From a virus (taxonomy: Duplodnaviria > Caudoviricetes): a stretch of 64,000 nt of DNA. A program made the translations under genes and the position numbers. Every line of letters starts with the position of its first letter. Positions within the stretch are counted from its first letter, which is position 1. The stretch is from IMG/VR virus record IMGVR_UViG_3300028738_000008, one strand, 5' to 3'. Shown here piece after piece: positions 29,658-29,769 of the stretch. The notes beneath the pieces were generated by a model. The model worked only from the letters and a program-made list of their open reading frames with translations, was not told the DNA's origin and made no database searches.

Positions 29658-29686
29658 TGTAACCTTTTTGGTTTCTTAACGTATAA
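29658..29686 (+). promoter_or_regulatory. TGTAAC-N16-CGTATAA putative promoter upstream of the suppressor tRNA
   Basis: Motif copy 2; ends 11 nt before the tRNA. Confidence 0.65.
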
Positions 29687-29697
29687 GTATTAAAATT

Positions 29698-29769
29698 GGC
29701 TCGTTAGTTCAGCGGTTAGGGCGTCTGACTCTAAATCAGAAGGCATGGTTTCGAATACCATACGAGCCG
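29698..29769 (+). tRNA. Amber suppressor tRNA (anticodon CTA)
   Basis: tctga-ctctaaa-tcaga; perfect 7-bp acceptor ggctcgt/acgagcc, G73, canonical T-arm. Confidence 0.9.

What the first reader, a model, noticed from the sequence alone, without database searches (positions are those of the whole stretch)
29658..29769. Amber suppressor tRNA with its own promoter, outside the attenuated sets, in a non-recoded region
This is a well-formed CUA tRNA preceded by a hairpin terminator and a TGTAAC-N16-CGTATAA motif. Long genes in this window have no in-frame TAG and most end in TAA. Among the TAG stops checked, the one at 43134 is backed by TAA. The suppressor therefore appears to serve a few programmed TAGs rather than genome-wide recoding. 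The inserted amino acid cannot be assigned by eye (G73, G1-C72, G2-C71, C3-G70).
Basis: partly seen in the sequence, partly recalled or inferred. Interest (0 to 1): 0.7.

Follow-up and report, generated by a model that had tools for sequence, protein, structure and literature searches.

The report
Phage amber suppressor tRNA with dedicated targets
A large standard-code phage from peat carries a genuine UAG-reading tRNA under its own phage promoter, and its likely job is to unlock a few nearby genes that begin with a deliberate UAG stop, which would give the puzzling suppressor tRNAs of non-recoded phages a concrete target.

Summary
Window 29698-29769 is a canonical tRNA with anticodon CUA (Rfam 63.6 bits). 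It follows a strong terminator hairpin and an exact TGTAAC-N16-CGTATAA box. That box is a real phage promoter class: 4 copies here and 52 in a relative, all on the + strand.

The window (64 kb) and 148.5 kb of the closest relative read well in code 11, so there is no sign of genome-wide TAG recoding.

The tRNA has specific targets:
- 390 nt downstream, a Pth2-like hydrolase gene starts ATG-ACG-TAG.
- Directly after it lies a 9-codon leader, MRKI-TAG-IRPP-stop.

I checked 18 divergent phage loci at DNA level. Each has a TAG 1-13 codons after the start of the Pth2-like gene. A purine followed the TAG in all 22 gate TAGs inspected, and a CUA tRNA sits in the same locus in 10 of the 18. One relative has TGA there instead. 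The tRNA bodies are unrelated between phages, and the TAG lies before the fold, so the inserted amino acid probably does not matter.

A third in-frame TAG (54611) replaces an invariant Trp codon. It is a one-base strain variant.

Expression, charging and the purpose of the gate are inferred, not shown.

Earlier agents of this scan reported the same gate on overlapping windows of this genome. I re-tested it independently. I found no paper describing it.

The parts
29622..29657 (+). Terminator-like hairpin (16-bp stem plus U run) that closes the upstream 79-aa ORF and separates the tRNA from the Lys/Tyr tRNA set.
   Evidence: -19.2 kcal/mol, z -5.8. The equivalent hairpin in relative L001 is -13.8 kcal/mol, z -4.7.
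29658..29686 (+). Promoter-like box TGTAAC-N16-CGTATAA, 11 nt upstream of the tRNA 5' end.
   Evidence: 4 exact copies in the window, all on the + strand, 0.11 expected; 52 copies in relative G001, all on the + strand, one of them before its CUA tRNA; both boxes are identical in L001 while the spacer differs.
29698..29769 (+). Amber suppressor tRNA. Anticodon CUA at 29731-29733, G73, no encoded CCA.
29784..30080 (+). 98-aa ORF directly after the tRNA. Function unknown. Probably co-transcribed, since no terminator lies between them.
   Evidence: no family hit. Present in L001, but not similar to the genes at this place in L023 or L025.
30158..30487 (+). Pth2-like hydrolase gene that starts ATG ACG TAG (TAG at 30164-30166). 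This is the proposed main target of the tRNA.
   Evidence: Pfam PTH2 scores 24 bits, just above its cut-off. A family profile matches solved Pth2 2zv3 at E 3e-9. The gate is conserved in 18 loci.
30492..30521 (+). Leader micro-ORF MRKI-TAG-IRPP-stop (TAG at 30504-30506). This is the second proposed target.
   Evidence: the same design lies 3-4 nt after the Pth2-like stop in L001 (with a synonymous CGT/CGC change), in L023 (MKDI*IHIRPP*) and in L025 (MKHL*IDIRPP*).
30636..31091 (+). 151-aa gene behind the leader. Function unknown. It is a conserved member of the module.
   Evidence: 38% identical to the gene at the same place in L023, E 1e-31..
54518..54853 (+). 111-codon gene with an in-frame TAG at 54611-54613, where all homologues have Trp. 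The TAG is a strain-level nonsense variant.
   Evidence: W32 is invariant in 9 homologues; sister-strain contigs are identical in 335 of 336 nt and carry TGG; the TAG allele is in contigs of 4 further peat runs.

Best explanation
This is a functional phage-encoded amber suppressor tRNA in a phage that otherwise uses the standard code. It is transcribed from a phage-specific promoter class.

Its selected job is to read a small set of programmed UAG codons placed at the very start of neighbouring reading frames:
- codon 3 of a Pth2-like tRNA-ester hydrolase gene, 390 nt downstream;
- codon 5 of a 9-codon leader that ends Arg-Pro-Pro-stop, in front of a conserved 151-aa gene.

Without the charged suppressor, ribosomes would end after 2-4 residues. 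With it, they read on. These products would then be made only once, and in proportion as, the suppressor outcompetes release factor 1. That makes the arrangement a translational gate or timer. Because the UAG lies in the N-terminal tail before the fold, any inserted amino acid would do.

Shown:
- the tRNA, hairpin and promoter motif are real;
- the gates are conserved;
- the gates use TAG and sit next to CUA tRNAs in other phages.

Inferred:
- the tRNA is expressed and charged;
- it, rather than something else, reads the gates;
- what the gate is for.
For: 1. The tRNA is canonical and high-scoring.

2. The promoter box belongs to a class with 4 copies in the window and 52 in the relative, all on the + strand. 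In the relative most lie before small ORFs. The box is conserved before the relative's CUA tRNA even though the tRNA body differs.

3. There is no recoding signal. Code 11 against TAG-as-sense cover is 0.865 against 0.872 in the window and 0.867 against 0.872 over 148.5 kb of the relative. TAG makes up 4 of 78 and 13 of 203 stops.

4. The Pth2-like gene carries an in-frame TAG 1-13 codons after a start codon in 18 loci checked at DNA level. These include cultured Tenacibaculum phage pT24, mycobacteriophages Bxz1 and Phabba, five 460-735 kb uncultured phages, and soil and peat contigs. The leader codons differ (MT*, MKK*, MNN*, MS*, MKNT* and others) while the TAG stays.

5. The gate is TAG in 18 of 19 loci, never TAA, although TAA is about 76% of stops here.

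6. In the window, GTT follows the TAG and there is no start codon before codon 42. Only read-through can therefore give the conserved N-terminal strand.

7. A CUA tRNA lies in the same locus in 10 gated loci, 0.13-2.6 kb away.

8. The base after the TAG is a purine in 22 of 22 gates and micro-ORFs, against 4 of 11 real TAG terminators (Fisher p 8e-5). This fits the established rule that a 3' purine favours suppression.

9. One relative has TGA gates in the Pth2-like gene and in the next gene, while its internal Trp codons are TGG. The early-stop design is therefore general.

10. The suppressor bodies are unrelated between phages, as expected if only the anticodon matters.
Against: - There are no data on expression or charging.
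- The rest of this phage's genome was not available. The relative's contig is only about 45% complete.
- In Bxz1 and Phabba the arrangement is NTG-TAG-GTG, with the Shine-Dalgarno sequence spaced for the GTG after the TAG. Ordinary initiation there, or a start-stop element, is possible.
- ATT, ATA or GTG, which can initiate, follow the TAG in 14 of the 17 gates whose next codon I listed.
- Two huge phages with the gate (LR745206, LR756502) show only an odd tRNA-like gene with a CUUCUAACC loop. An 89.5-kb fragment with the gate has no CUA tRNA.
- XacN1 has two CUA tRNAs but an ungated, fused Pth2-like domain.
- The suppressor type in the one TGA-gated contig is unknown.
- Why a Pth2-like enzyme should be gated is not explained.
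Confidence: 0.62

Rival explanations
1. The tRNA serves genome-wide or late-gene TAG recoding (code 15) in parts of the genome outside this window, as in crAss-like and Lak phages. On this view the early TAGs near it are just part of that recoding.
For: Phage CUA tRNAs are best known from recoded phages, where early genes stay in standard code (Borges et al. preprint). Only 64 kb of a genome of perhaps 265-330 kb was seen. TAG is rare as a stop here, a state that paper proposes as a step towards recoding.
Against: The window holds large genes of about 700-1070 aa that stay open in code 11. TAG-as-sense gives no gain in the window or in 148.5 kb of the relative. Real genes end in TAG. The TAGs are confined to leader codons 2-14 rather than scattered. 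Cultured carriers of the gate (pT24, Bxz1, Phabba) are annotated in standard code. No release-factor domain is found in the relative.
Confidence: 0.07
2. The early TAGs are short upstream ORFs or start-stop elements that act through release factor 1 and re-initiation at the next codon. On this view the tRNA does not read them and has another role, such as buffering nonsense mutations or disturbing host termination.
For: ATT, ATA and GTG after the TAG can initiate. In Bxz1 and Phabba the ribosome-binding site fits the GTG after the TAG. TAG is the only stop read by RF1 alone (established knowledge). The orf111 TGG-to-TAG variant shows that a nonsense allele persists in this phage.
Against: GTT or GTA follows the TAG in the window, L046 and L048, and these cannot initiate. 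The close linkage of CUA tRNAs to the gate across unrelated phages would be unexplained. The 13-codon leaders (MKNYADTGSGSPI*) are conserved at protein level.
Confidence: 0.13
3. The suppressor acts mainly on the host. It would extend host proteins that end in TAG, or counter a host defence that depends on termination. The gated phage genes would then be secondary.
For: The tRNA shares a promoter class with many small, probably early genes in the relative. The phage itself uses few TAG stops, and most are in a T context or followed closely by another stop. It would therefore suffer little from read-through.
Against: No host is known, so host TAG use cannot be tested. This view does not explain why the same gene carries the same early TAG next to the tRNA in many phages.
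Confidence: 0.08
4. The gene is a decaying or decoy tRNA that is not charged, for instance bait for a host anticodon nuclease.
For: It lies next to Lys and Tyr tRNAs, which are known nuclease targets. It has U53-A61 instead of the usual G53-C61, and no encoded CCA.
Against: All stems are intact and the Rfam score is among the top three of 34 tRNAs in the region. The promoter is conserved. A CUA anticodon is kept in unrelated tRNA bodies in other phages.
Confidence: 0.04

Closest known systems
Suppressor tRNAs of stop-codon-recoded phages (crAss-like, Lak and other code-15 phages; Ivanova 2014; Borges et al.)
   Same: A phage-encoded tRNA-CUA, encoded in standard code, proposed to switch on genes that contain in-frame TAG. 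The genome is AT-rich and TAG-poor.
   Different: Here there are no scattered in-frame TAGs and no coding gain under code 15. The TAGs sit only in the first few codons of two or three reading frames beside the tRNA. No release-factor gene was found in the relative's 148.5-kb contig, and the partial family scans of window ORFs turned up no release factor or synthetase.
Orphan CUA suppressors of standard-code jumbo phages, for example Xanthomonas phage XacN1 (PMC5852040)
   Same: CUA tRNAs inside a large tRNA set in a standard-code phage that also encodes a Pth2-type hydrolase. The XacN1 suppressor resembles the relative L001's tRNA in its 3' half.
   Different: The XacN1 authors read through annotated TAG stops and found no target. 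Here the targets are N-terminal gates that gene callers miss. In XacN1 itself the Pth2-like domain is fused to an HD domain and is not gated.
prfB (RF2) autoregulation through an early in-frame UGA (established knowledge)
   Same: An early in-frame stop codon in a translation-factor gene makes expression depend on the contest between termination and an alternative decoding event.
   Different: prfB uses a +1 frameshift and senses its own product. Here the alternative event is a dedicated suppressor tRNA, and no feedback from the Pth2-like product has been shown.
Lambda bar minigenes and Pth (established knowledge)
   Same: A start codon, one or two sense codons and then a stop. This is the architecture known to cause peptidyl-tRNA drop-off, the substrate of peptidyl-tRNA hydrolase.
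   Different: The bar minigenes stand alone. Here the minigene is fused in frame to a hydrolase gene and paired with a suppressor.
tRNA-Pyl and the pyl system
   Same: A CUA anticodon that reads specific in-frame UAG codons.
   Different: The Pyl tRNA hallmarks are absent, and the family scans run here gave no pyl-system hit. ARAGORN's label is nominal only.

Membership tests
tRNA (Rfam RF00005) | Full-length match to the covariance model above the gathering score, with a regular cloverleaf. | tested here: met
   63.6 bits against a gathering score of 29, model positions 1-71. ARAGORN cloverleaf.
Amber suppressor tRNA | Anticodon CUA in a 7-nt loop with U33. | tested here: met
   Loop CUCUAAA, anticodon at 29731-29733.
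Amber suppressor tRNA | Aminoacylated and active in decoding UAG in vivo. | not testable with these tools
   No RNA run holds the stretch. Only indirect support from conserved gates and a persisting nonsense allele.
tRNA-Pyl | 6-bp anticodon stem, 3-nt variable loop, small D-loop without G18G19, and pylS/pylBCD genes. | tested here: not met
   5-bp anticodon stem, 4-nt variable loop, D-loop AGCGGUUA with GG, T-loop TTCGAAT. No pyl-type family hit among the window ORFs scanned; not every ORF was scanned.
Code-15 (TAG to Gln) recoded phage | Many in-frame TAGs, with longer genes and higher coding density when TAG is read as sense. | tested here: not met
   Cover 0.865 against 0.872 (window) and 0.867 against 0.872 (relative, 148.5 kb). 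The gain is no larger than for TGA as sense. The rest of this genome was not available.
Code-change module of Borges et al. (suppressor tRNA plus synthetase plus release factor) | A release-factor or aminoacyl-tRNA synthetase gene beside the suppressor. | tested here: not met
   No RF-1 or PCRF domain in the relative's 148.5 kb. The neighbours of the tRNA have no such hits.
Pth2 peptidyl-tRNA hydrolase (the target gene) | Sequence match to the Pth2 family and to solved Pth2 structures. | tested here: met
   Pfam PF01981 at 24 bits, cut-off 23. Family profile against PDB 2zv3 at E 3e-9, and against bit1 at 4e-7.
Pth2 peptidyl-tRNA hydrolase (the target gene) | Catalytic residues and hydrolase activity. 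| tested here: inconclusive
   In the alignment to 2zv3 the phage family lacks the 'GkgK' insertion of the solved enzyme. Activity is not testable here.

The most novel reading that the evidence does not exclude
Suppressor tRNA plus early-stop-gated genes may form a portable translational control module of large standard-code phages. The gated genes are a Pth2-like hydrolase, in some lineages an Arg-Pro-Pro-stop leader, and in one case an HD-domain gene. The gate codon would match the resident suppressor: UAG in 18 loci and UGA in one. The module would set the expression of tRNA-recycling functions by the balance between suppressor and release factor, and it may be the first step from which full stop-codon recoding evolved.
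Probability: 0.4. Interest if true: 0.85.

Novelty: new variant of a known kind. Interest (0 to 1): 0.72.

Why it matters
Suppressor tRNAs turn up regularly in large phages that do not use an altered code, and their purpose has been open. The XacN1 authors explicitly failed to find targets.

A conserved gene-specific stop-codon gate next to the tRNA gives a testable answer. It also points to cultured systems (pT24, Bxz1-type mycobacteriophages) where it can be checked.

It exposes an annotation blind spot. Gene callers either truncate these genes or translate the TAG as Q, which can be misread as evidence for glutamine.

It may also show an intermediate stage on the road to phage stop-codon recoding.

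Tried and rejected
- Whole genome: none is held. An exact search for the tRNA in IMG/VR gave nothing.
- Origin from a paralogue: the tRNA is not a recent anticodon mutant of any of the 35 other tRNAs in the window. The best match is 56 of 73 identical, to Val.
- Amino-acid identity from homologue N-termini: many homologues read 'MKQVKLV', but the Q is the database's translation of TAG ('with_TAG=Q'; DNA). It is therefore no evidence for glutamine.
- Trp hints: G73 and the TGG-to-TAG variant are not decisive. The relative's suppressor has A73.
- RNA evidence: no RNA holder is listed.
- Genome-wide screens for further gates: nearly all candidates were other-frame noise. The candidate at 52682 is not conserved. 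The proposed paralogy of orf111 with 60458-60925 is not supported.
- Loose pattern for CUA tRNAs in huge phages: matches were near control level, so only T-loop-like matches were followed up.
- tRNA beside the TGA-gated gene (L050): it carries an intron and reads as Thr-AGU, not an opal suppressor. The contig is too short to judge.
- Agrobacterium phage Atu_ph07 (UCA suppressor): it has no homologue of this Pth2-like family.
- The 98-aa ORF after the tRNA is not part of the conserved module.

Full report
**The object**

ARAGORN calls a tRNA with anticodon CTA at 29698-29770. Rfam's tRNA model matches 29698-29769 over its full length at 63.6 bits, among the top three of 34 tRNA matches in the region.

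The cloverleaf is regular:
- acceptor stem GGCUCGU/ACGAGCC;
- discriminator G73;
- D-loop AGCGGUUA with G18G19;
- 5-bp anticodon stem and loop CUCUAAA;
- 4-nt variable loop;
- T-loop UUCGAAU.

Two unusual points are U53-A61 and the lack of an encoded CCA. The short variable arm excludes a Ser, Leu or bacterial Tyr body. The Pyl hallmarks are absent, so ARAGORN's 'Pyl' label reflects the anticodon only. The tRNA is not a recent anticodon mutant of any other tRNA in the window.

**Setting**

The window is part of a large, novel phage from peat. It has 33-35 tRNA genes, a ribonucleotide reductase and PHROG-only proteins, and its nearest cultured relatives are about 30% identical in protein.

Upstream of the tRNA lies a 16-bp hairpin with a U run (29622-29657, -19.2 kcal/mol, z -5.8).

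The box TGTAAC-N16-CGTATAA at 29658-29686 ends 11 nt before the tRNA. It is one of four exact copies in the window, all on the + strand (0.11 expected).

The closest relative is IMG/VR contig G001 (148.5 kb, about 45% complete). There the box occurs 52 times, always on the + strand. It lies mostly before small ORFs at 108-146 kb, and once before that phage's own CUA tRNA. Between the two phages both boxes are identical while the spacer differs.

So the tRNA has its own promoter, of a phage-specific class. Which polymerase or sigma factor reads it is unknown.

**No genome-wide recoding in what can be seen**

| Sequence | Cover, code 11 | Cover, TAG as sense | TAG stops |
|---|---|---|---|
| Window (64 kb) | 86.5% | 87.2% | 4 of 78 |
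| G001 (148.5 kb) | 86.7% | 87.2% | 13 of 203 |

Reading TGA as sense gives a gain of the same size, so the small increase is noise. No release-factor domain is found in G001.

**Targets**

I tested it independently.

The frame reads ATG ACG TAG GTT AAA ..., giving M-T-stop-VKLVTVTRKDL. The part after the TAG is a Pth2-like protein:
- Pfam PTH2 at 24 bits, just above its cut-off;
- family profile against solved Pth2 2zv3 at E 3e-9.

In G001 the same gene starts ATG AAG AAG TAG ATT. The leader codons differ but the TAG is kept.

I then fetched homologues from very different phages and read the DNA. All have a start codon, 0-12 sense codons, then TAG, in frame with the domain:
- five uncultured phages of 460-735 kb;
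- Tenacibaculum phage pT24;
- mycobacteriophages Bxz1 and Phabba;
- soil and peat contigs.

That makes 18 loci.

In the window there is no possible start codon between the TAG and codon 42, so only read-through can give the conserved first strand.

Directly after the Pth2-like stop lies a 9-codon ORF, MRKI-TAG-IRPP-stop (30492-30521). The same design follows the gene in three other loci:
- G001, with a synonymous change;
- L023, MKDI*IHIRPP*;
- L025, MKHL*IDIRPP*.

The 151-aa gene behind it is conserved too. Pro-Pro before a stop is a known poor termination context (established knowledge).

**Link between the tRNA and the gates**

- A CUA tRNA lies in the same locus in 10 gated loci, 0.13-2.6 kb from the gene. 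One huge phage has one 100 kb away.
- The gate is TAG in 18 of 19 loci and never TAA, the commonest stop in these genomes.
- The base after the TAG is a purine in all 22 gates and micro-ORFs, but in only 4 of 11 genuine TAG terminators (p 8e-5). This fits the classical rule that a 3' purine favours suppression.
- One contig (L050) has TGA instead, at codon 9 of the Pth2-like gene and at codon 8 of the next gene, an HD-domain gene. Both sit in the context CAT-TGA-GTT, while internal Trp codons are TGG. This shows the early-stop design is general. Its suppressor could not be seen on the 1.7-kb contig.

**Exceptions**

- XacN1 has two CUA tRNAs but an ungated Pth2-like domain fused to an HD domain.
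- Distant T4-like homologues are ungated.
- Two huge phages show only an odd tRNA-like gene.
- One 89.5-kb fragment has no CUA tRNA.
- In Bxz1 and Phabba the ribosome-binding site fits the GTG after the TAG, so those two cases are ambiguous.

**Which amino acid**

This is not assignable. The suppressors next to gated genes have unrelated acceptor stems and discriminators G, A or U. Even the window and G001 share only the acceptor stem. Since the TAG sits before the fold, identity probably does not matter.

A trap: database homologues read 'MKQVKLV...', but the Q is TAG translated as Q by the database's gene caller. It is no evidence for glutamine.

**A third TAG**

The gene at 54518-54853 has TAG at codon 32, where the G001 orthologue and seven other homologues have an invariant Trp.

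Two contigs of a sister strain are identical in 335 of 336 nt and carry TGG. The TAG allele is in contigs of four further peat runs.

This is a recent nonsense variant, followed by C rather than a purine. It is not a programmed gate. Its persistence fits an active suppressor but does not prove one.

**Breadth of the gate**

| Set examined | N-terminus with the gate signature | Truncated calls | Complete, ungated |
|---|---|---|---|
| 82 close homologues | 62 | 16 | 4 classed so; of these, P0050 is gated on DNA and P0054 has the same VKLV start |
| 150 cluster representatives | 26 | 58 | 62 |

Truncated calls are consistent with a hidden gate; one of them was checked and is gated. All five DNA checks of the signature were positive. 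The gate therefore marks a large clade within a wider phage Pth2-like family.

**Literature**

- Recoded phages with suppressor tRNAs are well described.
- Pth2 in jumbo phages and in cluster C mycobacteriophage tRNA arrays is noted.
- The XacN1 authors could not find targets for their CUA tRNAs.
- I found no paper that links a suppressor tRNA to an early stop in a Pth2-like gene.

Earlier agents of this scan reported the same gate and leader on overlapping windows of this genome.

**Verdict**

The tRNA is a known kind of object used in a way not described in the literature I could search.

The mechanism rests on comparative evidence only. It is a gate read by the resident suppressor in competition with RF1. 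The reason for gating a tRNA hydrolase is open.

Noticed in passing
window 23808, 29658, 38449, 56088; G001 (L015-L022) 62641-146246: TGTAAC-N16-CGTATAA is a strand-specific promoter-like class. It has 52 copies in the relative, 48 of them before small ORFs at 108-146 kb, followed by a conserved 'catagaaacaaac' start region. The polymerase or sigma factor that reads it is unknown.
   Followed up: partly
window 54518-54853: TGG/TAG polymorphism at an invariant Trp codon between near-identical strains. The TAG allele is present in five assemblies.
   Followed up: yes
L050:274-1323: Two adjacent genes (Pth2-like and HD-domain) each have an in-frame TGA at codon 8-9 in the context CAT-TGA-GTT, while internal Trp codons are TGG. 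This is an opal counterpart of the amber gate.
   Followed up: partly
L014 (XacN1 244 kb); P0215; L050:694-1323: The HD-domain protein and the Pth2-like domain are fused in XacN1 and in some metagenomic proteins, and are neighbours in L050. This suggests they work together on tRNA ends.
   Followed up: no
L026:1470-1628 (XacN1): The two CUA suppressors of XacN1 share one body but have different acceptor stems. The 3' half resembles the CUA tRNA of relative L001. Suppressor tRNAs seem to evolve by mosaic exchange.
   Followed up: no
L039, L041 (LR745206, LR756502): tRNA-like genes with a CUUCUAACC anticodon loop of about 9 nt. ARAGORN misses them and Rfam scores them weakly as tRNA-Sec-like. 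They could be unusual UAG readers.
   Followed up: partly
window 36801-37532: The 243-aa protein matches Pfam Tad3, a type I Thoeris inhibitor (E 4.7e-20).
   Followed up: no
window 42742-43134: A YqeY/GatB-tail-like protein (Pfam E 1.4e-18) ends in TAG directly followed by TAA.
   Followed up: no
window 19111-47036: Many tRNAs that are not Leu, Ser or Tyr are 82-92 nt long (Gly-UCC 87, Cys 86, Met 91, Trp 90, Pro 86, Asn 82). This suggests long variable regions or insertions.
   Followed up: no
protein database hits P0002-P0082, P0086-P0235: The metagenome protein collection translates these genes with TAG as Q (or TGA as W) on short contigs. That hides the gates and mimics a conserved Gln.
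   Followed up: yes
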